DNA of 64,000 nucleotides. Origin: Escherichia coli. GTDB lineage: Bacteria; Pseudomonadota; Gammaproteobacteria; Enterobacterales; Enterobacteriaceae. Positions 6,882 through 47,195 of this stretch are shown piece by piece (the first letter of the stretch is position 1; each line of letters begins with the position of its first letter). Location of the stretch: the NCBI RefSeq assembly GCF_044324875.1, contig NZ_CP172186.1; one strand, 5' to 3'. The translations under genes and the position numbers were made by a program. The notes under the pieces were generated by a model. It saw only the letters and a list, made by a program, of their open reading frames with translations. It did no database searches and was not told the origin of the DNA.

Positions 6882-9800
6882 ATGAGTGCACGTGGTATCA
6901 ACAAGGTCATCCTCGTCGGGGTGCGCCGTTGAAGCGCGGTGTTTTATGGAGTGTTGCCTGAAAAGCAACATGGCTTAGTGGTATAGCCATTGCATACTGT
7001 GGTTAGCCTTGCTTGGTAACAGGCTCGGAGATCCTGAAAAGGAGAGGTGAACATAGCATCCACAGAAAAGGGTGGTGAATATGGAAATCGTTATAAGTAT
7101 CACCATTCAATGCAAGATGTATATGGATAAACTGGGTTTGTTGAAGTCGAGATCTATGTGGGAAACAGGAAACCAATAACGCAGAACGATTGAAGCGTTA
7201 TTCCCGTACTAGCACAAGAAATCCGTCCGACGTTGATTGTGACCACTCTAACGGGCCAGCTATTGATGAAATAGTTAAACGATCGAAAGACATCCTAAGT
7301 ACATCGCATCTCCACACCGTGAAACTACGGGACTACCTAAACTGGATTTATACCCAGCATGGTAGCGGAGTCTCCATAGTACTCAAGGTCGGCCTGTAAT
7401 GGGTTCCGGCAGTCCGCATTATACGGAAGCAGCAAAGGTATAAATCAACCGGAAGGAAGATGAAAGCCTCACAGTGCTGCGGGGAAGGGAGACAGTTGTT
7501 AGATACATCAATCTCTAAGAGGAGGGTTAGCCAATGCTGCCTGATGAACTTGAGAAAAGATTAGATGGAATTGAGGATGCTTCAAAAAAAGGGTATCCAG
7601 TACGTAATCTATACAAAATTGCGTGTGAGCCCGGACTGTGGCTGCAAGCCTACGTGAATATACGGGCCAATGCAGGTGCACTGACTCAAGGTGTATCAAC
7701 AGATACCATTGATGGCTTTTCTATCGAAAGAGCAGAGAAGCTGGCAAAAACATTGCGGAGTAGAGAATACGTAGCGAAACCTGTACGCAGAGTTCAGATC
7801 CCAAAAAAGGACGGAAAAACCAGACCGCTGGGGATTCCAGGTGGAGACGATAAACTGGCGCAAGAAGTAGCAAGAATTATTCTGGAAAGGGTTTATGAAC
7901 CAGTATTCTCTGAACACTCTCATGGATTCAGACCAAAACGTTCGTGTGAAACTGCGCTCAGATCTATTCGTCCAGTCTGGAACGGAGTTAAATGGATCGT
8001 GGATGTTGATATCAAAGGTTTCTTTGACAATATCCCCCACAAACTATTGCTGAATACACTGGCAGAGAAAATTAAGGATAAGAATTTCCTGAAATTAATC
8101 GAACAGTGGCTGAAGGCAGGATATGTGGACAATTGGAAATACCATCGCTCATATTCTGGCACGCCACAAGGTGGGATAATTTCTCCCTTACTGGCAAATA
8201 TATACCTCGACAAACTGGACCGTTTTGTAGAACAGAATTTAATTCCTGCATATACAAGCGGTACAAAACGAAGAGCGAATCCAGATATGAACAGGCTGGC
8301 CCATAAGATTCATAAACTACGAAAGAAAGTAGACGGTATGGCAACTGATTCTGAATCAGAAAAAGAAGCCATAAAGAAAGAAATTGAACGACTGCTTGAA
8401 GAAAAACGTTCTATACCATCTCAGGTCATGAACGATCCAAACTTCAGGCGTATGTACTATGTTCGATATGCTGATGACTTCGTAATCGGTGTCATCGGCT
8501 CGAAGAAAGATGCTGAACATATATCAAGACAGGTCAGAAACTTTATTACTACTTCACTGGGATTGGAAGTTAATGAAGCAAAGACCAGGATCCGCCATAT
8601 CTCAGAAGGAGTTAATTTTTTAGGCTATGAAATCAGACAGGCAGATGCAAAGAAATTGCTGAAGCAGAAAATGCAAGGGCGGCACGCTCTCCGGAGATCC
8701 ACCACAGGAATTGTGCAGCTCTTCGTTCCTGACAATATAGCCGCTAAATTTTGTCACCAAAAGAAATATGGCTGTTATGAGAATGTGAAGGCTGTACATC
8801 GTTCAAGTCTACAAAATCTCAGTGAAGCTGAAATTGTTCTGACTTTCAACGCGGAAATGCGCGGATTGGCGAACTACTACAGTCTGGCGCTGGACATGAA
8901 ATATAAATTATCAAAATTATATTTCATATGGCAAATAAGCCTTTTTAAGACCCTGGCGAATAAACGACGTAGTTCAGTGAATAAAGTCGCCAAATCGCTA
9001 CGGCAAAATAATGGAGATCTGGCTATTACCGTTCAGGCCAAAAATGGATCCCGAAAGATTGAGGTTTTCAAACTCAAACATGTCAATCGCAACCGAACAA
9101 CGATTGTCGATACGGAACCGAGAACCGCACATATCACAACCCGCACAACAGAGATCATGCGTCGATTAGGGGCAAGGATCTGCGAGTATTGTGCGAAGAC
9201 TGGGCGCTGCGAAGTACATCATGTCAGAAAGCTAAAAGACCTGAAGAAAGGTCGTAAGGCCGGATATAAACCCAGCTTGTGGCAACTAATGATGATCGCA
9301 CGCCGCCGGAAAACGATGATTTTGTGCGCAAGTTGCCACGACAAGTTACATAGCGGAAAACTACCCGATTTGAGACAGGAAAAGGGAAGAATACTCCTGC
9401 AACCACCTGTCTCAAGCGGGGATTCTGCTAAATGAGTTTATCCCCAATAAGCTAGCAATGGAGAGCCGTATGCACTGAAAGGTGCACGTACGGTTCGGAG
9501 GGGGGGTAACGGTGATCTAACTCAAGATAAGCAGGACATATTCGCCATTTATCTTGAAAGACCACACGTACCCTACCCTACCGTCTGGGCAATGATCCGG
9601 AAGTCTGTTACATCCCCAACGGGGGCGCAGTGGCAAACCTGCAGGTCGCCACGTCAGAAAGCTGGCGCGACAAACAGACGGGGGAGATGCGGGAGCAGAC
9701 GGAATGGCACCGCGTGGTGCTGTTCGGCAAGCTCGCGGAAGTGGCTGGTGAATATCTGCGCAAGGGCGCGCAGGTCTACATCGAGGGGCAACTCCGTACC

Positions 9801-22237: not shown

Positions 22238-22322
22238 TTAAACAGAAAAGCCCTGGTATTTATGCCGGGGCTTTTTTTTCTGTAATCATCATAATCTCAG
22301 AACACGATGTGACATTGTCACA

Positions 22323-22664
22323 TCAATTGTTGTTCATATCGATGCCATCTTTCCTGCCTGAATCTGTCTTTTTAGGTGCTGTTTTAGAGGAAGAACGGCG
22401 GGATGTTTTTTTCGATTCTGCTTCCCGAATAATGTCACGAAGTGCCTTCTCTCCTACTTCATACCCTGCATTTTTGAGCGTGTCACGAATATCTGCCAGT
22501 GTATAACCCTTTGTCCTTACCAGGACAATAATGTCATCACGAATGGCATCAAGAAAATCACGCAATGTTTTCCGTTGAGCGGTGAGATCTGGCAATTCCG
22601 ATAAAGCAGCTTTTGCCAGCTGGATGTCATCATCTGAGTAAAATTTTTTAGAAGCCATTGGCAC
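22323..22664 (-). CDS. hypothetical protein with basic C-terminal tail, divergent from oriT
   Basis: 113 aa; K/R/S-rich tail ...KKTSRRSSSKTAPKKTDSGRKDG. Confidence 0.5.
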   Translation of the reverse strand: MPMASKKFYSDDDIQLAKAALSELPDLTAQRKTLRDFLDAIRDDIIVLVRTKGYTLADIRDTLKNAGYEVGEKALRDIIREAESKKTSRRSSSKTAPKKTDSGRKDGIDMNNN

Positions 22665-22699
22665 TTTCTCTCCGTTTAATCTTGAAGCCTGATTTTATC

Positions 22700-22885
22700 A
22701 TCAAAAACTGACTCCTGGCAGGGCTGCGCCCTGCCTCTGCCGTCTGCATAAGACTATGATGCACAAAAATAACAGGCTATAATGGCATGAAAAACGGGAC
22801 AGGATGTGTAATCGTATAACCGCGCACGCACGGCTATACGATTACCACCTGGTCAGGGCTTAGCCCCGACACCCCGGTAAGGAGC
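22700..22885. other. oriT: origin of transfer (oriT) region upstream of nikA
   Basis: Intergenic region with inverted repeat GTAATCGTATA...TATACGATTAC (22810..22848) and hairpin GGCAGGGC-TGC-GCCCTGCC; location immediately 5' of nikA. Confidence 0.65.
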
Positions 22886-22890
22886 AGACC

Positions 22891-23223
22891 ATGAGTGAGA
22901 AGAAAACCCGAAGTGGCAGTGAGAAACGGCAAAAGAATGTCCTCATTGCTGTTCGTTTTTCACCAGAAGAGGCTGAGATTGTTAAAGAAAAGGCAGAAAA
23001 AAACGGACTGACAGTTTCAACTCTGATAAGAAAAACTGTGCTGGGAAAACAGATAAATGCCCGCATTGATGAAGATTTTTTGAAAGAGCTGATGCGTCTT
23101 GGTCGCCTGCAGAAGCATCTGTTTGTGGAAGGAAAACGCACGGGAGATAAAGAGTATGCAGAGGTTCTCGTTGCTATTACAGAACTTGCTAATACTCTGC
23201 GAAGAGATTTAATGGGACGCTGA
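22891..23223 (+). CDS. nikA: relaxosome accessory protein NikA (ribbon-helix-helix)
   Basis: 110 aa, size and position as in IncI1 oriT operon; NVLIAVRFSPEEAEIVKEKA... RHH-like. Confidence 0.8.
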   Translation: MSEKKTRSGSEKRQKNVLIAVRFSPEEAEIVKEKAEKNGLTVSTLIRKTVLGKQINARIDEDFLKELMRLGRLQKHLFVEGKRTGDKEYAEVLVAITELANTLRRDLMGR

Positions 23224-23234
23224 GATAATCGCTG

Positions 23235-25937
23235 ATGAATGCCATCATTCCGAAAAAAAGACGCGACGGAAAGTCTTCTTTTGAAGACCTGATTGCGTAC
23301 ACCTCAGTGCGGGATGATGTGCCGGAAGATGAACTCAGACCAGACACGGAAGTGAAAGGTGAGGTTCCGCACCGGAATCGCTTCAGACGTCTTGTTGATT
23401 ATGCAACACGTCTGCGTAATGAAAAATTTGTTTCCCTGATTGATGTGATGAAAGACGGCAGTCAGTGGGTGAATTTCTATGGTGTGACCTGCTTTCATAA
23501 CTGTTTGTCTCTTGAATCTGCGGCTGAAGAAATGCAGAAAGCAGCAGACCTTGCTTATTTTTCCAAAGATGATACAGATCCTGTTTTTCACTATATTCTC
23601 TCCTGGCCTGCGCACGAAAGTCCGCGTTCTGAGCAGCTTTTTGACTGTGTGCGTCACACCCTGAAATCCCTTGAGCTGTCAAAACATCAGTATGTGGCAG
23701 CCGTTCATACAGACACGGATAACCTGCATGTACATGTTGCAGTGAATCGTGTCCACCCTGAAACCGGCTATATCAATTGCCTTCCGTGGAGCCAGGAAAA
23801 ACTCAGCCGTGCATGTCGTGAACTTGAACTTAAGCACGGATTCGCGCCGGATAATGGCTGCTTTGTGCATGCACCCGGCAACCGTATTGTGCGCAAAACA
23901 GCGCTGGTACGTGAGCGCCGTAATGCCTGGCGACGCGGGAAAAAGCAGACGTTCAGGGAATATATTGCTCAGATGTCGATTGCCGGGCTGCGTGAAGAGC
24001 CTGCACAGGACTGGTTATCTTTGCATAAACGGCTGGCCAGCGATGGTCTGTATATCACGATGCAGGAAGGGGAACTGGTGGTGAAGGATGGCTGGGACAG
24101 AGCGCGGGAAGGTGTTGCACTCAGTTCGTTCGGACCGTCATGGACAGCTGAAAAACTGGGGCGGAAACTGGGGGAATATCAGCCTGTACCGACAGATATT
24201 TTCAGTCAGGTGGGGACACCCGGTCGTTATGATCCGGAAGCCATAAACGTTGATATCCGGCCGGAAAAAGTGGCAGAAACGGAGAGTCTGAAACAGTACG
24301 CCTGCCGTCACTTTGCTGAACGCTTACCGGCAATGGCGCGCAATGGTGAACTGAAAAGCTGCCTGGCTGTACACCGTACTCTGGCAGAGGCGGGATTATG
24401 GATGGGGATCCAGCACGGGCATCTGGTACTGCATGATGGATTTGATAAACAACAGACACCAGTACGTGCAGACAGTGTGTGGCCGTTGTTAACGCTGGAA
24501 AATATCAGAAAACTGAATGGCGGCTGGCAGTCTGTACCGAAGGATATTTTTACTCAGGTTGTACCACAAAGTCGCTTTAGTGGGCATCGAATGGATATGC
24601 ATCCGGTCAGTGATCATGAATGGCACAGAATGAGAACAGGGGCTGGCCCACAGGGGGCAATTAAGCGGGAGATTTTCTCTGACAAAGAGAGTCTGTGGGG
24701 ATATGCAGTCAGCCATTGTGCCCGTGATATTCAGTACATGATCTCTGAAGGGCGCTTTAGCTGGCAGAACTGCCATGAACTGTTTGCCCGCAGTGGACTG
24801 ATGTTACAGAAACTGCATCATGGTCTTGTGATTGTGGATGCGTTTAATCATGACCAGACACCGGTTAAAGCCAGCAGCATTCATCCGGATTTGACTTTGT
24901 CCAGAGCAGAGCCGCAGGCCGGGCCATTTGAAATTGCAGCGGCGGATATTTTCGATCGGGTGAAGCCTGAAAGCCGTTATAACCCTGATATGGCTGTCAG
25001 TGACAGTAAGGAACCCGGGTTTAAACGGGATCCTGAATTGCGCCGCCGTCGTCGTGAAACCCGTGCAGCTGCGCGGGAAGATTTGCGTGCGCGTTACCTT
25101 GCATGGAAGGAGCACTGGCGTAAACCCGATTTACGTTACGGCGAACGGTTACGGGAAGTTCATGCTGCCTGCCGCCGGCGCAAGGCGCATATCCGCGTAC
25201 AGTTCAGGGATCCGCAAGTGCGTAAGCTGCATTACCATATTGCGGAAGTGCAGCGAATGCAGGCGCTGATCAGGCTGAAGGAAAGCGTCAGGGAAGAGCG
25301 ACTGTCGCTGATGGCGGAAGGTAAGTGGTACCCGCTGTCTTACAGGCAGTGGGTGGAGCAGATGGCGGTTCAGGGGGATTCTGCTGCTGTATCTCAGTTA
25401 CGTGGATGGAATTATCGCGACAGAAGGAATGATGAGGTGCTTTTAACCACGCCTCAACGCTGTGTGGTTCTTTGTGAACCAGGCTCCACCCCGATTCACA
25501 GGGATATCGGTGGCATGGTGGCGACTTTGCAGCGTAATGGCAGTGTGCGTTTCCGTGATGCGACAACAGGAGAGTACGTCTGTACAGATTATGGTGATCG
25601 CGTTGTTTTCAGCAACAGTGCCGATAACAAAACACTGAAGAAAAGGATGGTCAGGGTGTCCAGTGTGCTTTTTGCAAGGGATCCCCGAATGGGGTTTGAG
25701 CCGGAAGGTCAGGATGCACAATTTAACCGTATGTTTGCTGATATGGTTGCGTGGAAAAACGTGCAGCGGGATGAGCGTAAGGGGCACTACAGGATAAGTC
25801 GTTCTGATGTTGATCAACTGAGGGTCAGTAGTGAAAAACGTTTTCGTGATTATCTTAAAGGGCGTGATACTGAATCACACACTTACCATCATGCAACGGA
25901 TGAAAATAAGTGGGAGCCGCCATCACCGGGGATGTAA
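23235..25937 (+). CDS. nikB: relaxase NikB (MOBP-type)
   Basis: 900 aa; N-terminal relaxase domain with HxDTDNLHVHVAVNRV histidine motif. Confidence 0.85.
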   Translation: MNAIIPKKRRDGKSSFEDLIAYTSVRDDVPEDELRPDTEVKGEVPHRNRFRRLVDYATRLRNEKFVSLIDVMKDGSQWVNFYGVTCFHNCLSLESAAEEMQKAADLAYFSKDDTDPVFHYILSWPAHESPRSEQLFDCVRHTLKSLELSKHQYVAAVHTDTDNLHVHVAVNRVHPETGYINCLPWSQEKLSRACRELELKHGFAPDNGCFVHAPGNRIVRKTALVRERRNAWRRGKKQTFREYIAQMSIAGLREEPAQDWLSLHKRLASDGLYITMQEGELVVKDGWDRAREGVALSSFGPSWTAEKLGRKLGEYQPVPTDIFSQVGTPGRYDPEAINVDIRPEKVAETESLKQYACRHFAERLPAMARNGELKSCLAVHRTLAEAGLWMGIQHGHLVLHDGFDKQQTPVRADSVWPLLTLENIRKLNGGWQSVPKDIFTQVVPQSRFSGHRMDMHPVSDHEWHRMRTGAGPQGAIKREIFSDKESLWGYAVSHCARDIQYMISEGRFSWQNCHELFARSGLMLQKLHHGLVIVDAFNHDQTPVKASSIHPDLTLSRAEPQAGPFEIAAADIFDRVKPESRYNPDMAVSDSKEPGFKRDPELRRRRRETRAAAREDLRARYLAWKEHWRKPDLRYGERLREVHAACRRRKAHIRVQFRDPQVRKLHYHIAEVQRMQALIRLKESVREERLSLMAEGKWYPLSYRQWVEQMAVQGDSAAVSQLRGWNYRDRRNDEVLLTTPQRCVVLCEPGSTPIHRDIGGMVATLQRNGSVRFRDATTGEYVCTDYGDRVVFSNSADNKTLKKRMVRVSSVLFARDPRMGFEPEGQDAQFNRMFADMVAWKNVQRDERKGHYRISRSDVDQLRVSSEKRFRDYLKGRDTESHTYHHATDENKWEPPSPGM

Positions 25938-26005
25938 AAATCATGTAGACAGGGTGATTAAATCACCGTAATGTGTCCTCGTTGTGTATACATTATGGGG
26001 GAGAT

Positions 26006-26254
26006 ATGCGAACACAGGTGACACTGCAAAAATGGGGCAACAGTATTGCTCTCCGGTTAACCGGAAATCTGAAAACCGTGCCGGGTTTTTCGGCAGGAGA
26101 TGTGGTTGATGTGGAAATCAGTGAGAAAGGATTGATCGTGGAAAAACCGGTGAGACCTCGTCTTACAGAGGCTGTATTGCTTGCGGGGCTGACGCCATTT
26201 TCCGCGCATGCAGATGAAGCTGCCACTCTTCTTGATAAGGAGAGTGAGTTCTGA
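26006..26254 (+). CDS. MazE/PemI-like antitoxin (AbrB/SpoVT fold)
   Basis: 82 aa MRTQVTLQKWGNSIALRL...; immediately precedes and overlaps the toxin gene. Confidence 0.7.
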   Translation: MRTQVTLQKWGNSIALRLTGNLKTVPGFSAGDVVDVEISEKGLIVEKPVRPRLTEAVLLAGLTPFSAHADEAATLLDKESEF

Positions 26255-26598
26255 TGTTTGTTCCAAAGCGTGGTGATATTTGCTGGCTTGATTTTGAACC
26301 CCAAAAAGGAAAAGAAATTGGCAAATATCGTCCGGCATTAATCCTGTCCCATGAGCAATATAATCGTTTAACAGGGCTTGTCATATGCTGCCCTGTCAGT
26401 ACGAGTATCCGGGGCGCTCCAACAGAGGTTCCTGTTACTAATCTCGATGCACCAAGTGTGGTGGCCACAACGCTCATACAGACACTTGACTGGCGGCAAA
26501 GGCAAGTGCGTTTAATTACGGAAGCAGAAGAGGGCGTATTTGATGAGGTGCTTGAGAGAGTGATCACTCTGATTGGTGGTGAACATTTACTGAAGTGA
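26254..26598 (+). CDS. MazF/PemK-family endoribonuclease toxin
   Basis: 114 aa ...KRGDICWLDFEPQKGKEIGKYRPALILS...GLVICCPVSTS... PemK-like. Confidence 0.75.
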   Translation: MFVPKRGDICWLDFEPQKGKEIGKYRPALILSHEQYNRLTGLVICCPVSTSIRGAPTEVPVTNLDAPSVVATTLIQTLDWRQRQVRLITEAEEGVFDEVLERVITLIGGEHLLK

Positions 26599-26600
26599 AG

Positions 26601-26854
26601 GAGCCTGTTTAAGATTCTGTGTAAATGCCTTTCTCAGAAGTGACCGTCCAGGCGGTCACCGAACTCGATAATAAAGCGGCTCATTGCCATTCGCCAGTCC
26701 TTCAACGGCATCGTCCATTTCCGGGACGCAGACTGGATTGCCAGCCACACCACTTTTTTCACCGAGTCGTCTGTCGGGAACACTTTACGCTTTTTGATCG
26801 CATGGCGGATCACGCTGTTTAGCGACTCGATGGCATTCGTCGTATAGATCACTT
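26601..26854 (-). mobile_element. IS256-family element, right-end fragment with transposase C-terminus
   Basis: 72-aa ORF 26634..26852 ...TNAIESLNSVIRHAIKKRKVFPTDDSVKKVVWLAIQ... typical IS256-family Tnp C-terminus. Confidence 0.7.
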
Positions 26855-28144
26855 TGAACCGCCCCGGAAATCCTGGAGACTAAACTTCCTGAGAAAGATG
26901 TAAACAGGATGACTAAAAATACTCGTTTTTCCCCCGAAGTCCGTCAACGGGCAGTTCGTATGGTTCTGGAAAGCCAGGGCGAATATGACTCACAATGGGC
27001 GGCAATTTGTTCCATTGCTCCAAAGATTGGCTGTACGCCAGAGACCCTGCGTGTCTGGGTTCGCCAGCATGAGCGGGATACCGGGGGCGGTGATGGTGGG
27101 CTCACCACCGCTGAACGTCAGCGTCTGAAAGAGCTGGAACGCGAAAATCGTGAACTGCGCCGCAGTAACGATATCCTTCGCCAGGCTTCCGCTTATTTTG
27201 CGAAGGCGGAGTTCGACCGCCTCTGGAAAAAATAATGCCACTGCTGGATAAGCTGCGTGAGCTGCAGTGAGCTGCATATTGCCCCGTCAACGTATTACCA
27301 CTGTCAGCAACAGCAGCATCATCCTGATAAACGCAGCGCCCGTGCGCAGCGTGATGACTGGCTGAAGAAAGAGATACAGCGCGTATACGATGAAAATCAC
27401 CAGGTGTACGGTGTGCGTAAAGTCTGGCGTCAGTTGTTACGGGAAGGTATCAGAGTGGCCAGATGCACTGTGACACGTCTTATGGCGGTTATGGGTTTTG
27501 CCGGTGTTCTCCGGGGTAAAAAGGTCCGCATTACCGTCAGCCGGAAAGCCGTTGCCGCAGGCGACCGCGTAAACCGTCATTTCGTGGCAGAACGTCCTGA
27601 CCAGCTGTGGGTGGCTGATTTTACTTACGTCAGCACATGGCAGGGCTTTGTTTATGTGGCGTTCATCATTGATGTGTTTGCCGGATACATCGTGGGATGG
27701 CGGGTCTCCTCGTCCATGGAAACGACATTCGTGCTGGATGCACTGGAGCAGGCGTTGTGGGCCCGTCGTCCGTCTGGCACCATCCATCACAGCGATAAAG
27801 GCTCTCAGTATGTATCGCTGGCCTACACGCAGCGGCTTAAGGAAGTCGGATTACTGGCATCAACAGGGAGCACAGGCGACTCGTATGACAACGCGATGGC
27901 GGAGAGCATCAATGGTCTTTACAAGGCGGAGGTAATACACCGTAAGAGCTGGAAAAACCGGACAGAAGTGGAGCTGGCTACACTCACGTGGGTGGACTGG
28001 TATAACAATCGACGATTGCTGGAAAGGCTGGGCCATACTCCCCCGGCAGAAGCAGAAAAAGCTTATTATGCTTCCATCGGAAACAATGATCTGGCAGCCT
28101 GAGTTCACAGACAAAACATTCTCCAGGAAACCCGGGGCGGTTCA
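26855..28144 (+). mobile_element. IS629/IS1203-like IS3-family element, copy A (small internal deletion, frameshifted orfB)
   Basis: Ends TGAACCGCCCCGG...CCCGGGGCGGTTCA; orfA 26909..27235, orfB remnant 27257..28102; ~20 bp missing at orfA/orfB junction relative to copy C. Confidence 0.85.
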
Positions 28145-28603
28145 GTTTTGCCATTCTACAACCTGCTCCATCACGGCATCGGTAACCTTTGATATCAGTG
28201 CCGGTGAAACATCTGCGTCATACAGTTCTTTGAACGCAGCGGCTATCTCACGGGTGGTCATCCCTTTGGCATACAACGAGAGGATCTGGTTATCCATCCC
28301 GGTAATACGGGTCTGATTTTTCTTTACCAGTTGTGGTTCGAAGGTACCGTCACGATCGCGCGGAGTACGCAGTTCCAGTGGACCGTCGCCTGTGATAACG
28401 GTCTTTGTGGAATAACCGTTGCGGGAGTTAGCTCCTGGTCTGGACTGATTTTTCTCATACCCAAGATGGTGTGTCATCTCTGCATTGAGAGCGGCTTCAA
28501 CGCTGAGCTTTTTCAGCAGCCGATCAAACTGACTGAGGTCTTCAGGGGTTTTGAGGTTTTTGGCCAGTTCGTTAGCCAGAGCCTGTAACTGTTTTTCGTC
28601 CAT
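28142..28603 (-). pseudogene. IS256-family transposase, N-terminal 153 aa (interrupted by IS629 copy A)
   Basis: MDEKQLQALANELAKNLKTPEDLSQFDRLLKKLSVEAALNAEMTHHLGYEKNQ...; middle ~175 codons absent. Confidence 0.75.
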
Positions 28604-28689
28604 AAATTAACCTTCATTTGATGCTGGATTGAACATATCAAAATCAGGCAATTACACAAATCTATGTACAGGCTCTTCCGCTGGCTGGC

Positions 28690-28935
28690 TCACCTGCGTC
28701 GCGCCGGCTGCCAGGTAAACGTGTTCTCTGCGGCACGATACGCTTTTGTTCGTTGAGCCTTTGCGGTTCTCGCTTTGCGCTCTGCCCGAATCATTCTCAA
28801 AACTTTTACACGCACTTTTCTCTTAACTTCCCGTGGCAGTTCATCCCTGCCGGACAACTTTAACTGTGCAGCCTGTGCGGCATAAGCATCGTTGATACGC
28901 TTACGTTCTGCTTCCGTCAGTTTCATCCAAGACAT
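28690..28935 (-). CDS. hypothetical highly basic small protein (cargo of the IS256-bounded insertion)
   Basis: 81 aa; strong AGGAGGA RBS 5 nt upstream of ATG. Confidence 0.45.
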   Translation of the reverse strand: MSWMKLTEAERKRINDAYAAQAAQLKLSGRDELPREVKRKVRVKVLRMIRAERKARTAKAQRTKAYRAAENTFTWQPARRR

Positions 28936-29073
28936 AATTCCTCCTGGTGACTTATCCGTGTTATGTCTTTAATCTGTATCCCCTTCGTTGCTATGCCTCC
29001 GGGATATCAGGTATTACCTTTCGAAGAATTTTATAAAAAACCACCTGTGCAGAGGGAAAGAGTGGATTTGCCC

Positions 29074-29979
29074 CTATATTTCCAGACATCTGTTATCACT
29101 TAACCCATTACAGGCCCGCTGCCGCAGATATTCCCGTGGCGAGCGATAACCCAACGCACTATGCGGATGCCATTCGTTATAATGCTCGAACGCCTCTGCA
29201 AGGTTCTTTGCTGCCGTTAACCCGTCTGGTTTGGGCATGACACTGATGTAGTCACGCTTTATCGTTTTCACGAAGCTCTCTGCTATGCCGTTACTCTCCG
29301 GACTCCGCACCGCCGTGTTCTTCGGTTCAAGCCCCAACATCCGGGCAAACTGCCGTGTTTCATTAGCCCGGTAGCATGAACCATTATCCGTCAGCCACTC
29401 TACTGGAGACGCCGGAAGCTCGTTGCCGAAGCGGCGTTCCACCGCTCCCAGCATGACGTCCTGTACTGTTTCACTGTTGAAGCCGCCCGTAGTGACCGCC
29501 CAGTGCAGTGCCTCACGGTCACAGCAGTCCAGCGCGAACGTGACTCGCAGTTTTTCTCCGTTATCACAGCGGAACTCGAACCCGTCAGAGCACCATCGCT
29601 GATTACTTTCTTTCACAGCCACTCTGCCGGTATGTGCCCGTTTCGATGGCGGTACAGCGGTTTTTCGCTCAAGCAACAGCGCATTCTGGCGCATGATCCG
29701 GTAAATACGTTTGGCATTGATCGCAGGCATACCATCAAGTTCTGTTTGTCTGCGAAGCAGCGCCCATACCCGACGATAACCATATGTGGGTAGCTCTCCG
29801 ATAACATGGTGTATACGGCGAAGCACATCCGTATCATCCGTGTGACGGCTGCGGCGGCCGTCCTTCCAGTCATCGGCTCGTCTGAGAATGACGTGCAACT
29901 GCGCACGCGACACCCGGAGACAACGGCTGACGAAGCTTACTCCCCATCCCCGGGCAATAAGGGCGCGTGCGCTATCCAC
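29074..29979 (-). CDS. insD: IS2 InsD (OrfB transposase)
   Basis: 301 aa DDE transposase ...[26 protein letters not shown]... Confidence 0.9.
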
Positions 29980-30347
29980 TTTTTTGCTCGCCCATATTCA
30001 ACGGCTTCTTTAAGGAGTTCATTTTCCATCGTTTTTTTGCCGAGCAGACGCTGGAGTTCTTTAATCTGCTTCATGGCGGCAGCAAGTTCAGAGGCAGGAA
30101 CGATCTGTTCTCCGGCAGCCACAGCAGTAAGACTTCCCTCCTGGTATTGCTTACGCCAGAGAAATAGCTGGCTGGCTGCCACACCATGTTGCCGGGCAAC
30201 AAGGGAGACCGTCATTCCCGGTTCAAAGCTCTGCTGAACGATAGCGATCTTTTCCTGTGTAGTACGCCGTCTGCGTTTCTCCGGCCCTAAGACATCAATC
30301 ATCTGTTCTCCAATGACTAGTCTAAAAACTAGTATTAAGACTATCAC
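29937..30347 (-). CDS. insC: IS2 InsC (OrfA)
   Basis: [53 protein letters not shown]... Confidence 0.9.
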
Positions 30348-30394
30348 TTATTTAAGTGATATTGGTTGTCTGGAGATTCAGGGGGCCAGTCTAA

Positions 30395-31981
30395 AGAGTA
30401 AGGAACTTACTGATTCATTTAATATTATTATCCATCAATAACTGAGCATACAAAAAAATAACAAAACTCTGACACAGATACAACCAGCTCTCTCTATATC
30501 AGACTGACATTCTTCTCAAAAAGAGGCGTGTTCTGGAACACGGAACAGAAGCAATGAACATTGTAGACAGAAACACACTCTGTTTTTTACACGAGGATAT
30601 ATGTCGGGAAAATCAGGCAGAAGAAATTAAAGGACTTTGTGCATACAAAGGGAAAGCGCGTTTCCGGTGCACCATATTAGATATTATCCCTGCTACAAAC
30701 ACCAGAGACGCGCTCATAACTCTTCTAGCGTAAAATATCCTTTCAGGCAAGGAAAAGGTCGTGATACAGAATCACGACCTTAATTTTATCGAAAACACGG
30801 ATTTTAGTATGCACATGACTGTACTCCTCAGGAGTACAGGGAAATCATAATCAGTAACAAAAACACCCGGCAACAAAAATTTAACGCGTTTACGCTATTT
30901 TTGTGACAAATATTGCAAATATGGAATCACTGTATTTTTACTGCAACAAAATCTGGTTGATCCACAGGCGGATCCGGGGTAAAAAATTATCCGGAATGTT
31001 TCTGCGTGGTGTGGTAAAACCTCTAGCCGGATTGCCTTTGCAGCAACGCAGGAACATTCCATCCTTTATCAGTACTCCTGACGCTGTAAAGACCTGGCTG
31101 ATGCAGACAGGACTGCTGATATCGAATCAAAGCTTTCTCATTTTTTCGCGTACACAAAATAAAACAAATCAGGCAATTCCTTACACTCCCCCTCTAAAAT
31201 TGAGGGTTTTTTTTTACCATATAAATTACTTGCACAGCTTTTAAAAAAATTGCAAATCTTTACTGTAGTGTCGGGCTTCATGTAGCTCAACAGGGCATGG
31301 ACTAAAAAGAAGTAAACCCATCTTTTATCTCCCTGATATGGGGGTCTTTGTGGCATAAAGAATTCCTTGAATTATTATTTTGATCATATCAACATGAAAA
31401 GAATAATACTCTGACTTTTGATTTCCAGTGCCAGATATAAAATCAAATTCACTGTAAATATCACATAATGATATCTGGCTGCCCCCAGTCACTTCCTGTA
31501 TTCAGCCACACATATAAGCCCCCTGAATTTCCTTGTGGTTTTTATGTGATAAAAACCACAAGGAAACGATGGTTGAAATAATATTTAAAATGTGAAAGAT
31601 ATCACCCGTAGAATTTTTCAATCCGACACTCCATAGAATGGACCTTTAAGATTTAATCCTCATCATGTATGAGGATTTTTTTTCTGGCAGACAAAAATAT
31701 CTTTTCAGCAATCCCTGTTCAGTTCCGGTTCTGGTGACTCTGGAAGAGGTATTGTTACACGCTATAACCTGCCGGAATGACTCAGGTCCGTTCATCTCTG
31801 ATACCATTAAAAGAAGCATTAAGCACATTCTGAGCGCCTCTTACAGAAGAAGCGGAACGCGTTCCTGGCTCCTGTTGCATAATCTTACTAACCCCATGGT
31901 TTTCTTGACTGCCAGAAACGCGCCCACAGTTTTTTTAGCCTGTCTCCGGTTCCTTGTCTAGAATACTGTTGATTTTTTGTT
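30395..31981. other. AT-rich non-coding segment with three plus-strand intrinsic terminators and a 13-bp-arm palindrome
   Basis: No convincing ORF; hairpin+T-run at ~30760..30790, ~31188..31218, ~31663..31693; palindrome CCTTGTGGTTTTT-ATGTGAT-AAAAACCACAAGG ~31530..31565. Confidence 0.5.
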
Positions 31982-33163
31982 TGAACCGCCCCGGGTTTCC
32001 TGGAGAGTGTTTTATCTGTGAACTCAGGCTGCCAGATCATCGTTTCCGATGGAAGCATAATAAGCTTTTTCTGCTTCTGCCGGTGGGATATGGCCCAGCC
32101 TTTCCAGCAATCGTCGATTGTTATACCAGTCCACCCACGTGAGTGTGGCCAGCTCCACTTCTGTCCGGTTTTTCCAGCTCTTACGGTGTATTACCTCCGC
32201 TTTGTAAAGGCCATTGATGCTCTCCGCCATCGCGTTGTCATACGAGTCACCAGTACTTCCTGTTGATGCCAGTAATCCGGCTTCCTTAAGCCGCTGTGTG
32301 TAGGCCAGCGATACATACTGAGAACCTTTATCACTGTGATGGACTGTGCCGGACGGTCGACGGGCCCATAACGCCTGCTCCAGAGCATCCAGCACGAATG
32401 TCGTTTCCATAGACGATGAGACCCGCCACCCCACGATGTATCCGGCAAACACATCAATGATGAACGCCACATAGACGACCCCCTGCCATGTGCTGACGTA
32501 AGTAAAATCAGCCACCCACAACTGGTCAGGACGTTCTGCCACAAACTGACGGTTTACGCGGTCGCCTGCGGCAACGGCTTTCCGGCTGACGGTAGTGCGG
32601 ACCTTTTTACCCCGGAGAACACCGGCAAGTCCCATAACCGCCATGAGGCGCGCCACTGTACATCTGGCTACCCTGATTCCTTCCCGTAACAACTGACGCC
32701 AGACTTTACGCACACCGTATACCTGATGATTCCCATCGTATACGCGCAGTATCTCTTTCTTCAGCCAGTCATCGCGCTGCGCACGGGCACTGCGTTTATA
32801 AGGATGATGTCGCTGTTGCTGACAGTGGTAATACGTTGACGGGGCAATATGTAGTTCACTGCATACCGGTCCGACCCCGTACAGCTTACGCAGCTTATCC
32901 AGCAGTGGCATCACTTTTTCCAGAGGCGGTCGAACTCCGCCTTCGCAAAATAAGCGGAAGCCTGGCGAAGGATATCGTTACTGCGGCGCAGTTCACGATT
33001 TTCACGTTCCAGCTCTTTCAGACGCTGACGTTCAGCGGTGGTGAGCCCGCCATCACCGCCTCCGGTATCCCGCTCATGCTGGCGTACCCAGACACGCAGG
33101 GTCTCTGGCGTACAGCCAATCTTTGGAGCAATGGAACAAATTGCCGCCCACTGTGAGTCATAT
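31982..33163 (-). mobile_element. IS629/IS1203-like element, copy B, 5'-truncated
   Basis: orfB 32024..32914 intact; orfA loses its first ~30 codons at the junction with the IS66-family element. Confidence 0.8.
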
Positions 33164-33193
33164 GTAAGCGACTCGTCAGAACCGTATTGATAT

Positions 33194-34765
33194 TTACTGA
33201 GAGCTCAGATCAACTTTCCAGGGCAACAGATCGCGTACCCGGTTTGCCGGCCAGTCCTGGATATGTTCAATGACGTAACGCAGCCACTTTTCTGGCTCCA
33301 CATTGTTCAGACGGCATGTGCCGATCAGCGAGTACAACACCGCCGCATGTTCACCACCGCTGTCGGAACCCGCGAACATCCAGTTTTTCCGGCCTACGGC
33401 CACTCCCCGTAAGGCGTTCTCTGCGATGTTGTTGTCGATTTCCACCCAGCCATTACTGCAGTACACGTTCAGTGCATCCCACTGTTTCAGCAGGTATGCG
33501 AACGCTTTTGCCGTATCTGAGTGACGCGACAGTGTTTTCATCTGTTGCTGTATCCAGTCATACAGTGACTGCATCAGTGGCGCGGCTCTGGCTTTTCTTG
33601 CCGCCAGACGCTGTTCTGCTGAACAGCCCCGGACCTCTGCCTCGATGGCATACAGTTCACCGATACGCTGCAGGGCTTCCGTGGTGATGTAGGTGGGCGC
33701 TCTTGCATGCACATCGTGGATTTTTCTCCGGGCATGAGCCATACACGCGGCTTCCGTTATTCTGCCGGATTCGTATAACGCCCGGTAACCACCGTAAGCA
33801 TCGGCCTGAAGCACACCGCTGTAACCGGCCAGGTGATTTTGTGGATGGATACCTTTCCGGTCCGGACTGTACGCGAACCAGACCGCCGGGGGCATCTGTG
33901 AACCGGCGTTACGGTCATCACGGACGTAGACCCACAGCCGGGCTGTCCGGGTTTTACCGCTGCCCGGCTCCTGGACCGGGACGGGGATATCATCAGCATG
34001 GACTTTACCGGGCATCAGCACATACTGGCGCAGGACGTCATACAGCGGCTCCAGCAGTTCAGCAACAGCACCTGTCCAGCGCCCCAGTGTGGCACGGCTC
34101 AGCTCCACTCCCTGACGACGGTATATTTCTGACTGGCGGTATAACGGCAGATGGTCTGCATATTTCCCGGTGACAACATGGGCCAGAAGCCCCGCTCCGG
34201 CATAACTGCGTGCAATGGGTTTTGAAGGTACTGGTGCCTGCACGATATGGTCGCACCGGCAACAGGCCTGTTTCGGACGTTGTGTTTCGATAACCTTAAA
34301 GGCGCTGCTGATAAGCTCCAGTTGCTCTGACACATCACATCCCAGAGAACTGAGTTCACCACCACAGGCAGGACAGCATTCCTCTTCCGGCCGGATAACC
34401 CGGGTTTCACGGGGAAGTGAGGCCGGTAACGGTTTACGGGCTGAAGACTGGCGCAGGGCGGATGGCAGTACCGGGTCATATTGCTCACCCAGCGTTTCCG
34501 CCATTTCTTCCTGAAGTGCGCTGATTCGCTCCTGTGCTTCCTGTATCTGCCGTTCGGTTTTTGCACGAAGTTTTTCTGAGCTTTTACCGAACTGCATACG
34601 TTGCAGTTTCGCAACCAGCGCCTTCAGCCGGTTGATTTCGGAAGCATAAGCCGCCACCCGCTGTGAGAGCAGGCGGTTGTATTCAGCCATCTGGCGGATG
34701 GTGTCCTGTTGCGTCTGCAACAGTGCCCGCAGGCGGGCGTTCTCATGAGCAAGTGAGGTGTCCAT
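33194..34765 (-). CDS. IS66-family transposase (TnpC)
   Basis: 523 aa with leucine-zipper N-terminus and CPACGG zinc motif, typical IS66 TnpC. Confidence 0.85.
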
Positions 34766-34784
34766 ATCCTCACTTTACAACGGG

Positions 34785-35132
34785 TTATATGCGGATTCCA
34801 GCGCGTTCCGTTCGTTTCGGGTGCTTCCAGTTGATACCTTCAAGAAGCATGGATAACTGAGCCGGAGTAAGGTGCACCTTGCCGTCACGGGTGACTGGCC
34901 AGACGAAGCGGCCCCGCTCCAGGCGTTTGGTGAAGAGGCACAGTCCGTCACTGTCAGCCCACAACACTTTTATCTGGTCACCCCGGCGTCCGCGGAAGAT
35001 GAACAGGTGTCCGGAGAACGGGTCATCCTTCAGGACGTTCTGAACTTTTGATGCCAGGCCGTTAAAGCCATTTCGCATATCGGTGATACCTGCAACCAGC
35101 CAGATACGCGAACCTGCAGGGAGAGATATCAT
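34785..35132 (-). CDS. IS66-family TnpB (orf2)
   Basis: 115 aa MISLPAGSRIWLVAGITDMRNGFNGLA... Confidence 0.85.
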   Translation of the reverse strand: MISLPAGSRIWLVAGITDMRNGFNGLASKVQNVLKDDPFSGHLFIFRGRRGDQIKVLWADSDGLCLFTKRLERGRFVWPVTRDGKVHLTPAQLSMLLEGINWKHPKRTERAGIRI

Positions 35133-35809
35133 CAGTGGCTGCTCCCTTTTATTTCGCGGATAAGTGTCTGTAATAACGCCGGCGTCAGTTTACCTTTAAG
35201 CCTGAGAGTTCCGGCCGGCAGAACCAGCTCACAACACAGACTGTCGGACGGTGTATTTATCTGCTCTGGTTCCTGTGCGGGGGCCGGGATTTTATTATCC
35301 GGCTCCGGCGTTAACGTCACGGGAAGCAGTGCCGGCATATTTTTTCCGGAAGGCAGCAGGCCACCTTTCCGGTATTGATGGCGCCAGTTGAAGAGCAGGT
35401 TATCGTTGATTCCGTTTTCCCGGGCGATCTGCGCCACACAGGCTCCGGGCTGCAGTGACTGCTCCACTAAGGCGATTTTAAACTCATAAGGGAAGTTGGG
35501 CCGCCGGGGACGTTTTTTTACCACGGGGGCTTCGGATATAACGGTGCTTTCAGGACGTACGACTGGTACCGTGGAAAATTGTCCGTAAAGGCAGGCATCA
35601 AGTTCCTGCTCCGACATGCCTGCGGGCAAAGGCCACGAAAGGCCAGCTCTCCGAAAGCGCACGAACATACTACAAACTGTTGATTTTGGTACACCCAGGC
35701 GACGCCCGGCCACAACCCGGGGTAAATGTTCTTCAAAGTGAAGACGTAAAGCTTCAGTGATCCAGGTCCGGTGTTTCATACGATAGTGTCCATTAAAAAT
35801 GATGGACAT
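35132..35809 (-). CDS. IS66-family orf1 (TnpA-like HTH protein); start uncertain
   Basis: First ORF of the three-gene IS66 arrangement. Confidence 0.7.
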   Translation of the reverse strand: MSIIFNGHYRMKHRTWITEALRLHFEEHLPRVVAGRRLGVPKSTVCSMFVRFRRAGLSWPLPAGMSEQELDACLYGQFSTVPVVRPESTVISEAPVVKKRPRRPNFPYEFKIALVEQSLQPGACVAQIARENGINDNLLFNWRHQYRKGGLLPSGKNMPALLPVTLTPEPDNKIPAPAQEPEQINTPSDSLCCELVLPAGTLRLKGKLTPALLQTLIREIKGSSH

Positions 35810-35855
35810 TATTTTTGTAGAGCCGGAGGAAACAGACCAGACGGTTTAAATGAGC

Positions 35856-36042
35856 CGGTTACTTCCCGACAGACGACTCGGTGAAAAAAGTGGTGTGGCT
35901 GGCAATCCAGTCTGCGTCCCGGAAATGGACGATGCCGTTGAAGGACTGGCGAATGGCAATGAGCCGCTTTATTATCGAGTTCGGTGACCGCCTGGACGGT
36001 CACTTCTGAGAAAGGCATTTACACAGAATCTTAAACAGGCTC
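35856..36042 (+). mobile_element. IS256-family element, second right-end fragment (inverted relative to 26601..26854)
   Basis: Reverse complement of 26601..~26785 including transposase 3' end. Confidence 0.7.
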
Positions 36043-40982: not shown

Positions 40983-41438
40983 GGGGATTCCTCCATAGAT
41001 GAATGGATAAATTTCGGGATTAAGTCGGGTGGCATGAATGCGAATCAGCGCCGGTAATAACCGGACAGGAATGAATTCAACAGGACATTTTTACAGAGAA
41101 GAGCGAACGGCAGAAGGTGGTGGGAGACAGGTACAAAAAAACCGACTGGTGAGGCCGGTTTTTTTGCGATTCCGGGGTGGAGTTGGTGGCTCTGACCGGA
41201 GGAAGTCTCTTTTCAGCTAACAATGAGAGAGCTGTTGTGACAGGCAATGTAAGAGTAAGCAGCAGTGATTTCCTCCATTGACGGAGAAACGGATGATTAA
41301 CCTGTTAATCATCGTTCTCAGGGCGGTTGTTGCTGTGGCTAACGCAGTGATAGCTCTCCGGGAACTGGTTGACTGATAATCCCGGAAACGTACTTAAGGG
41401 CAGAGGGTCACCTCCTTCTGCCCTTTAACAAAATATGC

Positions 41439-46647: not shown

Positions 46648-46991
46648 CGGTGGGGTACAAACGCAGAAATTTTGTTGTCATTACATCATCAGTTTTAGCC
46701 TGCAGAGACGCTGAAAAATCAGCGTTTTCAGACCCTGTTCAGGTTAGTGAATATTCTTGCCTGGCCTTTCGGCAATATCAATCCCCTGATGTGTGCACAC
46801 GTAGTCACTTTCCGGCTTTATTTCTGTCCCTGACACAAAATACGTGGTGGCATGAAAAGGATTGTGGCGGACAGGAAAACGATTAGAATAGCGGCGGGCG
46901 CTTGAGGCTGTATGCCGAAAGCGTTTTGTGGACGGCATGTAGCAGAAAGCCCCAGGCGATTTTTTTATCAATCAACCCAGGGCCCACTGTA

Positions 46992-47195
46992 ATGCCTAGA
47001 CAACATTATAGTAGCCCGATGACGGCCGAAAGGCAATGGAGGGGCTGCGATGCCACAACGAACGTTTTTAATGATGTTAATCGTCGTCTGTGTGACGATA
47101 CTGTGTTTTGTCTGGATGGTGAGGGATTCGCTTTGCGGATTTCGTATCGAGCAGGGAAATACGGTGCTTGTGGCAACGTTAGCCTACGAAGTTAA
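46992..47195 (+). CDS. pndC: possible PndC (mok-like overlapping reading frame); start uncertain
   Basis: Alternate frame overlapping almost all of pndA, as in hok/mok-type loci. Confidence 0.35.
   Translation: MPRQHYSSPMTAERQWRGCDATTNVFNDVNRRLCDDTVFCLDGEGFALRISYRAGKYGACGNVSLRS

What the first reader, a model, noticed from the sequence alone, without database searches (positions are those of the whole stretch)
22323..22885. Basic-tailed 113-aa protein transcribed divergently from oriT
The gene ends in a K/R/S-rich tail and its promoter region shares the intergenic space with the oriT inverted repeats (GTAATCGTATA...TATACGATTAC) and a GGCAGGGC-TGC-GCCCTGCC hairpin. It could be an uncharacterised relaxosome accessory or nucleoid-associated factor acting at oriT.
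Basis: inference. Interest (0 to 1): 0.3.

Follow-up and report, generated by a model that had tools for sequence, protein, structure and literature searches.

The report
oriT-adjacent StbA-like regulator gene yggA
The flagged ORF is the conserved plasmid gene yggA (mislabelled "MobC"), a small predicted DNA-binding protein beside the transfer origin that most likely turns down the neighbouring relaxase genes and is not needed for transfer.

Summary
There is a real gene on the minus strand, 22323-22658 (111 aa from ATG; 113 aa from GTG at 22664). It diverges from oriT-nikA-nikB and ends in a basic K/R/S-rich tail.

The window is an IncK2/Z plasmid of the IncI complex. The gene is yggA, the first leading-region gene of R64-type plasmids. 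RefSeq mislabels it [quoted passage not shown].

- **Selection:** the 82-aa core is under strong purifying selection (dN/dS 0.05); the tail keeps its composition but not its sequence.
- **Context:** relatives occur in about 3,500 plasmids, and in every context examined they lie divergent from a NikA-like/MOBP relaxase pair.
- **Published genetics:** yggA is dispensable for IncI1 transfer. Deleting the IncM homologue orf35 raises nikA/nikB/traH transcripts 23-80-fold and oriT-plasmid mobilisation over 100-fold.

Best reading: an HTH repressor of the divergent oriT operon, not an essential relaxosome accessory. This is a member of a known kind; the StbA link is a modest new point.

The parts
22323..22658 (-). 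yggA coding sequence (111 aa from ATG; an alternative GTG start at 22664 gives 113 aa). RefSeq labels it 'MobC'.
   Evidence: ORF list; PGAP annotation of the 100%-identical plasmid NZ_CP100501.1; 97% identity to a 2,695-member protein cluster; dN/dS 0.14 overall.
22413..22634 (-). Folded helical core, residues about 9-82. It comprises an N-terminal helix, the conserved LPDL motif and a tri-helical HTH. Residues 54-63 form the second HTH helix and residues 70-87 the putative recognition helix.
22326..22412 (-). Disordered basic K/R/S/T-rich C-terminal tail, residues 83-111.
   Evidence: pLDDT 57-64 with no secondary structure beyond residue 87. Net charge +6. Tail dN/dS is 0.54, but net-positive composition is kept in 40 of 41 homologues.
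22668..22673 (-). Shine-Dalgarno sequence GGAGAG of yggA.
   Evidence: Read directly from the sequence; conserved in the relatives aligned.
22692..22721 (-). Predicted yggA promoter: -35 CTGCCA at 22716-22721 and extended -10 TGATAAAAT at 22692-22700.
   Evidence: Consensus scan. The -10 block is conserved in all five IncI-complex relatives. No transcription start site has been mapped.
22717..22735 (.). Perfect GC-rich palindrome GGCAGGGC-TGC-GCCCTGCC overlapping the yggA -35. It is a candidate operator or a T-strand hairpin.
   Evidence: The E. fergusonii plasmid carries a compensatory variant, GGCAGGAC-TCA-GTCCTGCC. Function is inferred.
22778..22783 (+). Probable -10 box (TATAAT) of the nikAB (oriT operon) promoter. 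It lies back-to-back with the yggA promoter and has only a weak -35.
   Evidence: Perfect hexamer, invariant in all five aligned relatives. The promoter assignment is an inference.
22796..22808 (-). Nick region: CACATCCTG|TCCC on the minus strand, with nic inferred between 22800 and 22799. The minus strand would be transferred with yggA entering first.
   Evidence: Near-invariant in the IncI-complex relatives, 11-12 of 12 positions. The same motif sits at the same place in IncL/M, Serratia and other loci. It matches the IncP/IncI-type nick consensus from my own knowledge. PMC6112013 calls yggA the first gene of the R64 leading region.
22808..22845 (.). 18-nt inverted repeat of oriT. By analogy with R64 this is the NikA-binding repeat.
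   Evidence: It folds as a long hairpin in the T-strand. It is part of the oriT core shared with small mobilisable plasmids.
22852..22870 (.). Second oriT palindrome, GTCAGGGC-TTA-GCCCCGAC, just upstream of the nikA ribosome-binding site.
   Evidence: It is strongly conserved across distant MOBP/MPF_I plasmids.
22891..23223 (+). nikA, the ribbon-helix-helix relaxosome accessory protein.
   Evidence: Pfam NikA-like E 4.9e-22; NCBIfam MobA E 2.3e-32.
23235..25937 (+). nikB, the MOBP relaxase.
   Evidence: Pfam Relaxase E 4.7e-28; NCBIfam TraI_MobP_relax E 2e-124.
22246..22283 (.). Bidirectional intrinsic terminator shared by yggA and the convergent DUF4942 gene.
   Evidence: The inverted repeat AAAAGCCCTGGTAT/ATGCCGGGGCTTTT is flanked by A and T runs. 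The terminator role is an inference.

Best explanation
The ORF is yggA, the first gene of the leading region of IncI-complex plasmids. [quoted passage not shown]

It encodes an ~82-residue helical domain carrying a tri-helical helix-turn-helix. The closest solved structure is the DNA-binding domain of StbA from plasmid R388. A ~29-residue disordered basic tail follows.

Most likely mechanism (inferred): the protein binds the 232-bp yggA-nikA intergenic region, where its own promoter and the nikAB promoter sit back-to-back beside the nick site. There it represses the oriT operon (nikA-nikB) and probably its own promoter. The basic tail would add non-specific DNA affinity. The result is a limited supply of relaxosome proteins.

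The gene is therefore dispensable for self-transfer. Its loss should show mainly as higher nikAB mRNA and higher mobilisation of small plasmids that carry an IncI-type oriT.

Shown: gene reality, conservation, synteny, predicted fold. Borrowed from a 32-40%-identical homologue: the repression phenotype. Inferred: the operator sites and the mode of action.
For: 1. Real and constrained gene. dN/dS is 0.05 in the core at dS 1.3. There are 77 relatives among 1.8 billion representative proteins, with an invariant Tyr and near-invariant residues including the Pro of the LPDL motif and K-G of the KGY motif.

2. Conserved linkage. The gene lies divergent from a NikA-like protein plus MOBP relaxase in the window and in the IncL/M, Serratia, Pseudomonas and two further loci. 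tblastn finds it in 3,545 plasmid records, 3,203 of them conjugative.

3. DNA-binding fold.
   - AlphaFold2 mean pLDDT is 81.5, above 90 across the HTH.
   - 7pc1 has the highest Foldseek probability and TM-score in the list.
   - hhalign of the family against R388 StbA gives probability 85%, E 6.5e-6; against a StbA alignment, probability 68%, E 4.8e-5 over 76 columns.
   - The family profile also matches the sigma-54 C-terminal HTH (E 9e-4) and StbA (E 0.057) in the PDB.

4. Same position and direction as stbA. stbA lies beside oriT, divergent from the MOB operon, and enters the recipient first (PMC3098194). StbA is an autorepressor, and its deletion raises conjugation 50-fold.

5. Homologue genetics. 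In orf35::cat, nikA, nikB and traH transcripts rise about 40-, 23- and 80-fold, pToriT mobilisation rises over 200-fold, and self-transfer is unchanged (PMC6112013). Strains lacking orf35 mobilise about 100-fold better (PMC7440800). The window protein and the IncL/M homologue share 40% identity, E 8e-13.

6. Dispensable in IncI1. The TnSeq study of pESBL scored YggA non-essential 0.99.

7. Promoter geometry. The predicted yggA -35 overlaps the palindrome, which shows a compensatory variant in a relative. An invariant TATAAT for nikA lies 57 bp away.
Against: - No experiment exists on yggA of any IncI-complex plasmid beyond the TnSeq dispensability result.
- The orf35 phenotype was only weakly complemented in trans, so a cis effect of the cat insertion is not excluded.
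- In the IncI complex, nikAB is not fused to the tra operon as it is in IncM. The regulatory reach may therefore be smaller.
- No operator has been identified. GGCAG-type repeats recur upstream in 3 of 6 lineages, but the enrichment (p = 0.0012) is post hoc and does not survive correction for 512 k-mers.
- A single stbDR-like octamer at 22756-22763 is at chance level and is not conserved.
- The pESBL TnSeq study did not report insertions in yggA as enhancing transfer.
Confidence: 0.5

Rival explanations
1. TraK-like architectural relaxosome accessory. YggA would bind or wrap DNA beside nic and help NikA/NikB assemble or nick, acting as a positive factor.
For: The position matches that of traK in RP4-type plasmids: divergent from traJ-traI and beside oriT. 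Guynet et al. linked StbA to TraK_RP4 and to MobC of pTF-FC2 by iterative PSI-BLAST (PMC3098194). An HTH plus basic tail is a plausible DNA-wrapping protein.
Against: YggA is non-essential for IncI1 transfer. Deleting orf35 raises rather than lowers mobilisation. Small plasmids use the oriT core without the gene in cis. Direct hhalign of the YggA family against RP4 TraK is not significant (probability 0.6%, E 0.11).
Confidence: 0.15
2. StbA-type plasmid positioning factor. [quoted passage not shown]
For: The closest structure and the gene position are those of StbA. One distant relative (L013) has a tandem array of ATGACG/ATGATG repeats just upstream of its gene.
Against: There is no stbB or stbC partner, no StbA C-terminal domain, and no direct-repeat array in the window. 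The plasmid already carries ParA-type and ParM-type partition genes. YggA scored 0.00 for maintenance in TnSeq.
Confidence: 0.1
3. Establishment factor acting in the new host. As the first gene to enter, it would be expressed early in the transconjugant, for example to shut off nikAB or to protect incoming DNA. A variant of this idea is that the basic tail is a type IV secretion signal.
For: It is the first leading-region gene (inferred nick orientation). Leading regions are enriched in early-acting genes (PMC11541004 and PMC12672017, listed).
Against: The transferred strand is the sense strand of yggA, so it cannot be transcribed from the incoming single strand. This is the opposite of ssb, psiB, ardA and the other plus-strand leading genes. 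The six ssDNA promoters mapped in pESBL are described upstream of other operons, with no mention of Hp23/YggA. There is no match to known anti-defence families, though PADLOC was not searched.
Confidence: 0.1
4. The intergenic palindrome acts on its own as a single-strand DNA signal in the incoming T-strand (priming or termination), and the protein has some unrelated role.
For: The T-strand from nic to yggA folds better than all 200 shuffles (z -3.3), with the GC hairpin present in the centroid structure. A compensatory change preserves pairing in a relative.
Against: A palindrome with compensatory change is equally expected for a dimer operator. It overlaps the predicted -35. It is degraded in the S. 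salamae relative.
Confidence: 0.1

Closest known systems
YggA of IncI1 plasmid R64 / Hp23 of pESBL
   Same: Same gene. It is 336 bp on the strand opposite to nikA, lies immediately beside oriT, and is followed by a convergent DUF4942 gene. It is 94-98% identical to the common IncI-complex protein clusters.
   Different: Essentially nothing differs. The window copy is the IncK2/Z allele, a few residues apart from the IncI1/B/O and IncI-gamma alleles.
Orf35 of IncM plasmid pCTX-M3 ('MobC' in IncL/M annotation, e.g. pOXA-48-like plasmids)
   Same: Homologous core (40% identity, E 8e-13). Same position as first leading-region gene, divergent from nikA-nikB. Same overall layout of folded core plus tail.
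   Different: In IncM, nikAB is the head of the whole tra operon, so Orf35 loss de-represses the T4SS as well. In the IncI complex, nikAB is a separate operon. The tails are unrelated in sequence.
StbA of IncW plasmid R388 (PDB 7pc1)
   Same: Best structural match for two family members. Profile similarity runs across the whole N-terminal domain. The gene lies beside oriT, divergent from the MOB operon, and is first to enter. A disordered segment follows the HTH.
   Different: YggA is 111 aa against 135-175 aa. It lacks the StbA C-terminal domain, has no stbB/stbC downstream, and has no arrays of 9-bp stbDR repeats. It belongs to MOBP/MPF_I plasmids, which are outside the groups listed for StbA.
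TraK of IncP plasmid RP4
   Same: Same gene position beside oriT and divergent from the relaxase operon. A small protein with a central GY...F.Y.TFR HTH-like segment and a low-complexity C-terminal part rich in P, A and K.
   Different: Direct profile comparison is not significant. From my own knowledge, TraK is a positive relaxosome factor, whereas genetic data for the YggA family point to a negative or neutral role.
MobC of RSF1010 / ColE1 / RA3 (Pfam PF05713)
   Same: Only the name, and a general association with mobilisation regions.
   Different: No sequence match to PF05713 at E up to 1. Different gene position.

Membership tests
YggA / Orf35 / IncL-M 'MobC' family | Sequence homology over the ~82-aa core (LPDL ... 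KGY ... HTH). | tested here: met
   97% identity to the main cluster. phmmer finds 77 relatives. Conserved columns are listed. BLASTP against the IncL/M homologue gives E 8e-13.
YggA / Orf35 / IncL-M 'MobC' family | First leading-region gene, divergent from nikA-nikB across oriT. | tested here: met
   Window layout. The same layout is seen in L002, L003, L004, L011 and L013. Literature statement in PMC6112013.
YggA / Orf35 / IncL-M 'MobC' family | Negative effect on nikAB(-tra) transcription and on mobilisation; dispensable for self-transfer. | not testable with these tools
   Known only for orf35. Dispensability is known for pESBL YggA.
StbA family (R388) | N-terminal tri-helical HTH domain of StbA type. 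| tested here: met
StbA family (R388) | Gene adjacent to oriT, divergent from the MOB operon, first to enter the recipient. | tested here: met
StbA family (R388) | Operon partner stbB (ParA/MinD-like ATPase) downstream. | tested here: not met
   The next gene is a convergent DUF4942 gene behind a terminator.
StbA family (R388) | Arrays of 9-bp direct repeats (stbDR, TTGCATCAT) around its promoter. | tested here: not met
   There is only one ATGATGCA octamer, at chance level. No repeat array is present. Compare the R388 arrays.
StbA family (R388) | Size of 135-175 aa with a C-terminal domain carrying the conserved R..LG.KY motif. | tested here: not met
   YggA is 111 aa and its tail has no such motif.
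TraK (RP4) relaxosome accessory | Detectable sequence homology to TraK. | tested here: inconclusive
   hhalign probability 0.6%, E 0.11, although the HTH segments do align. A link exists only via StbA, through PSI-BLAST reported in PMC3098194.
MobC of RSF1010/ColE1 type (PF05713) | Match to the Pfam MobC model. | tested here: not met
   No hit at E up to 1.
Molybdopterin-guanine dinucleotide biosynthesis proteins (the RefSeq product name) | Match to MobA/MobB-type cofactor-biosynthesis domains. | tested here: not met
   No Pfam or NCBIfam hit of that kind. The context is a conjugation module. The name is a misexpansion of 'Mob'.
Nucleoid-associated proteins (H-NS, HU/IHF, Fis) | Match to the corresponding domain families. 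| tested here: not met

The most novel reading that the evidence does not exclude
YggA/Orf35/'MobC' could be the MOBP/MPF_I branch of a StbA-TraK superfamily. In that case most MOBP and MOBF conjugative plasmids would share one ancestral HTH 'gatekeeper' encoded as the first gene next to nic. It would set relaxosome gene expression and oriT accessibility. In IncI-complex plasmids it would specifically throttle mobilisation of the many small plasmids that carry only an IncI-type oriT.
Probability: 0.3. Interest if true: 0.5.

Novelty: new member of a known kind. Interest (0 to 1): 0.3.

Why it matters
IncI-complex and IncL/M plasmids are major carriers of ESBL and carbapenemase genes, and this gene is present in thousands of them under a misleading name. 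If it represses the oriT operon as its IncM homologue appears to, it sets how readily these plasmids mobilise the numerous small plasmids that carry only an IncI-type oriT. Removing the homologue has already been used to build donor strains that mobilise about 100-fold better. The structural link to StbA gives a concrete DNA-binding model for a family that its investigators described as having no known DNA-binding motif.

Tried and rejected
- **Family and structure searches on the protein alone.** Pfam, NCBIfam and PDB sequence searches gave only sub-threshold noise: transposase HTH regions, an AAA lid, centrin.
- **Pfam scan of all 41 family members.** No shared family.
- **Foldseek against the PDB.** No hit with E below 0.4. 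Calmodulin-type helical hits were rejected as low-TM noise. 7pc1 had the best probability and TM-score.
- **AFDB50 fold search.** The library was unavailable.
- **stbDR-like sites.** One ATGATGCA octamer lies at 22756-22763. There are 5 in the window against 3.4 expected, and it is not conserved in the S. salamae relative. Rejected as an StbA-type operator.
- **GGCAG/CAGGC repeats upstream of yggA-like genes.** Among the top-ranked 5-mers, recurring in 3 of 6 lineages, but not significant after multiple-testing correction. Kept only as a lead.
- **Sigma-54 promoter reading of TGGCAG...TGC in the palindrome.** Rejected because the spacing is wrong (read directly from the sequence).
- **Direct hhalign to RP4 TraK.** Not significant.
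- **Rfam.** Nothing at the locus.
- **Literature gaps.** The R64 record AP005147, RK2 record BN000925 and Furuya & Komano 1997 (PMC179678) were not available. The R64 nick-site and NikA-site assignments therefore rest on my own knowledge plus conservation. Supplementary expression tables for pESBL Hp23 were not held. The pOXA-48 Tn-seq paper does not discuss this gene.

Full report
**What is there**

The window is an IncK2/Z plasmid of the IncI complex. It is 100% identical over the tested 2 kb to E. coli plasmid pLH50-c-A, NZ_CP100501.1. The flagged ORF lies on the minus strand at 22323-22664. PGAP starts it at the ATG at 22658, giving 111 aa. Homologue N-termini (MAxKKFYS...) favour that start.

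Across a 232-bp gap lie nikA (22891-23223) and nikB (23235-25937). nikA matches Pfam NikA-like at E 5e-22. nikB matches Pfam Relaxase and NCBIfam TraI_MobP_relax at E 2e-124.

- An 18-nt inverted repeat at 22808-22825 / 22828-22845.
- A perfect GGCAGGGC-TGC-GCCCTGCC palindrome at 22717-22735.

As single-stranded DNA, the region from the nick to the gene and the oriT core itself each fold better than all 200 shuffles, with z -3.3 and -5.4.

**oriT anatomy**

Read on the minus strand, the order is as follows:
1. nikA start.
2. GTCGGGGC-TAA-GCCCTGAC palindrome (22852-22870).
3. The 18-nt inverted repeat.
4. CACATCCTG|TCCC (22796-22808).
5. An invariant ATTATA, which is TATAAT on the plus strand at 22778-22783.
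6. The GC palindrome.
7. The predicted yggA promoter (-35 at 22716-22721, extended -10 at 22692-22700).
8. The yggA ribosome-binding site and start codon.

The same order of palindrome, long repeat and ATC(C/T)TG-TCCC is found in IncL/M, Serratia and other relatives, and in degenerate form in a Pseudomonas plasmid. The 22790-22880 core alone occurs on many 1.4-6 kb plasmids that lack the gene.

From the IncP/IncI nick consensus (my own knowledge), the minus strand is nicked 8 bp from the repeat. It would be transferred with yggA entering first. This agrees with PMC6112013, which calls yggA the first gene of the R64 leading region.

One consequence is that the transferred strand is the sense strand of yggA. 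The gene cannot be transcribed from incoming single-stranded DNA. Most of the leading-region genes, including ssb, psiB and ardA, lie on the other strand.

**The gene is real and widespread**

Against the S. salamae plasmid homologue, dS is about 1.3. dN/dS is 0.05 for residues 1-82 and 0.54 for the tail.

An exhaustive phmmer search of 1.8 billion representative proteins found 77 relatives. They are about 100 aa long with conserved LPDL and KGY motifs and an invariant Tyr. In 40 of 41 aligned members the segment after the core is net positive, although its sequence is not conserved.

tblastn with a distant member hits 3,545 plasmid records, of which 3,203 are conjugative. In every context examined, the gene is divergent from a NikA-like gene plus a MOBP relaxase. 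These contexts are an IncL/M pOXA-48-like plasmid, Serratia pSF001, a Pseudomonas tremae plasmid and two further contigs.

**Names**

RefSeq calls it [quoted passage not shown]. It matches neither cofactor-biosynthesis families nor the Pfam MobC family. The name appears to be a misexpansion of the IncL/M-style mobA/mobB/mobC labels.

In the literature it is YggA of R64, Hp23 of pESBL, and the homologue of Orf35 of pCTX-M3.

**Fold**

No curated family matches. An AlphaFold2 model built from the family alignment has mean pLDDT 81.5, with values above 90 over residues 31-80. It shows helices at 9-20, 32-38, 40-50, 54-63 and 70-87, followed by a disordered tail.

The evidence linking this fold to StbA is as follows:
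- Foldseek gives no significant E-value, but 7pc1 has the highest probability and TM-score.
- hhalign of the family against R388 StbA gives probability 85%, E 6.5e-6. Against a 28-sequence StbA alignment it gives probability 68%, E 4.8e-5 over 76 columns, covering YggA 10-91 and StbA 2-78.
- The family profile also hits the sigma-54 C-terminal HTH (E 9e-4) and StbA (E 0.057) in the PDB.

I conclude that the core is a tri-helical HTH whose nearest solved relative is StbA. Homology is plausible but not proven.

**What published work says about function**

- The TnSeq study of the IncI1 plasmid pESBL scores YggA as non-essential 0.99, maintenance 0.00 and transfer 0.01. The adjacent oriT, NikA and NikB are required (PMC4288162).
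- In pCTX-M3, replacing orf35 leaves self-transfer unchanged. It raises nikA, nikB and traH transcripts about 40-, 23- and 80-fold, and raises mobilisation of an oriT plasmid more than 200-fold.
- The authors proposed orf35-dependent repression and noted that the protein has no known DNA-binding motif. Complementation in trans was weak (PMC6112013).
- Donor strains lacking orf35 mobilise about 100-fold better (PMC7440800).
- StbA of R388 is encoded at the equivalent position, beside oriT, divergent from trwABC and first to enter. It binds stbDR repeats through its N-terminal HTH, represses its own and other leading-region promoters, and its deletion raises conjugation 50-fold.

**Most likely mechanism**

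YggA is an HTH protein that binds the yggA-nikA intergenic region and represses the nikAB promoter, and probably its own. The basic tail would add non-specific DNA contacts. My confidence is about 0.5.

Candidate operators are the GC palindrome and the stretch between it and the nikA -10. The palindrome overlaps the yggA -35 and shows a compensatory variant, GGCAGGAC-TCA-GTCCTGCC, in an E. fergusonii plasmid. These assignments are inferences.

GGCAG-type repeats recur upstream of yggA-like genes in 3 of 6 lineages, but the enrichment is post hoc and not significant after correction. A single stbDR-like octamer at 22756-22763 is at chance level and is not conserved.

**Rivals**

It has positional support, and PSI-BLAST work reported by others links StbA to TraK. 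The dispensability and de-repression data contradict it, and my direct profile test against TraK was not significant.
- **StbA-like positioning role.** The absence of stbB, of the StbA C-terminal domain and of repeat arrays argues against it. So do the plasmid's own par loci.
- **Early establishment role.** The strand orientation argues against it. So does the description of the six pESBL single-strand promoters, which lie upstream of other operons.

These readings are not mutually exclusive. A protein bound next to nic could both repress PnikA and affect relaxosome assembly.

**Verdict**

The protein is predicted to bind DNA and is linked to oriT, but it is more likely a repressor than a required accessory.

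The gene is a long-catalogued, widely distributed member of a family with one partly characterised homologue, so novelty is modest. The new points are the StbA-like fold assignment and the recognition that the RefSeq product name is wrong. They make the family's DNA-binding role directly testable.

Noticed in passing
window 22323-22658, and thousands of RefSeq records: The product name 'molybdopterin-guanine dinucleotide biosynthesis protein MobC' is propagated across a cluster of about 2,700 member sequences. The protein has no similarity to cofactor-biosynthesis proteins or to the Pfam MobC family. This looks like a systematic misannotation.
   Followed up: yes
window 22790-22880: The oriT core (nick region plus both inverted repeats) occurs at 75-92% identity on many 1.4-6 kb plasmids. 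Most of those listed have no annotated gene under the match, though one carries nikA. They are small plasmids that presumably exploit IncI-type relaxosomes.
   Followed up: partly
window 22306-22324: A perfect 9+1+9 palindrome, GATGTGACA-T-TGTCACATC, overlaps the yggA stop codon and extends just downstream of it. It is unique in the window (0.01 expected by chance) and is not followed by a T-run. Its function is unknown.
   Followed up: partly
window 22717-22735 versus L008 (E. fergusonii plasmid): The GC palindrome carries a compensatory double change in a relative: GGCAGGGC/GCCCTGCC becomes GGCAGGAC/GTCCTGCC. This indicates selection on symmetry or on pairing.
   Followed up: partly
L013:3408-3452: A distant yggA-like gene in a metagenome contig is preceded by a tandem array of ATGACG/ATGATG units about 70 bp upstream. 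It is reminiscent of the StbA stbDR arrays of R388.
   Followed up: no
window 22686-22697, 22756-22765 and L011:3857-3886: The 12-mer AGCCTGATTTTA is shared between the window and a 49%-identical lineage (L011), in opposite orientation. The 10-mer TTTTGTGCAT is shared between the window's minus strand and L011, at a similar distance from the nick in both.
   Followed up: no
proteins P0108/P0109 and P0112/P0123: Some distant family members end in short conserved C-terminal motifs: IRPDRER(L/V), and HAG(F/L)(D/N)E. These may be partner-binding peptides. They are absent from the window protein.
   Followed up: no
window 9461-9581: Rfam match to the group II intron catalytic domain (67 bits) inside the leading region.
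   Followed up: no
window 25973-26598 and 26600-36000: A MazE/MazF-type toxin-antitoxin pair and IS3-family elements follow nikB. Three ALIL frameshift pseudoknots were found, at 27190, 32840 and 57430; the first two lie in this stretch. These elements separate nikB from the trb genes.
   Followed up: no
window 46896-47052 and 41133-41220: Rfam finds a sok antitoxin RNA next to a Hok/Gef gene, and an AgrB antisense RNA next to a DinQ-like toxin gene.
   Followed up: no
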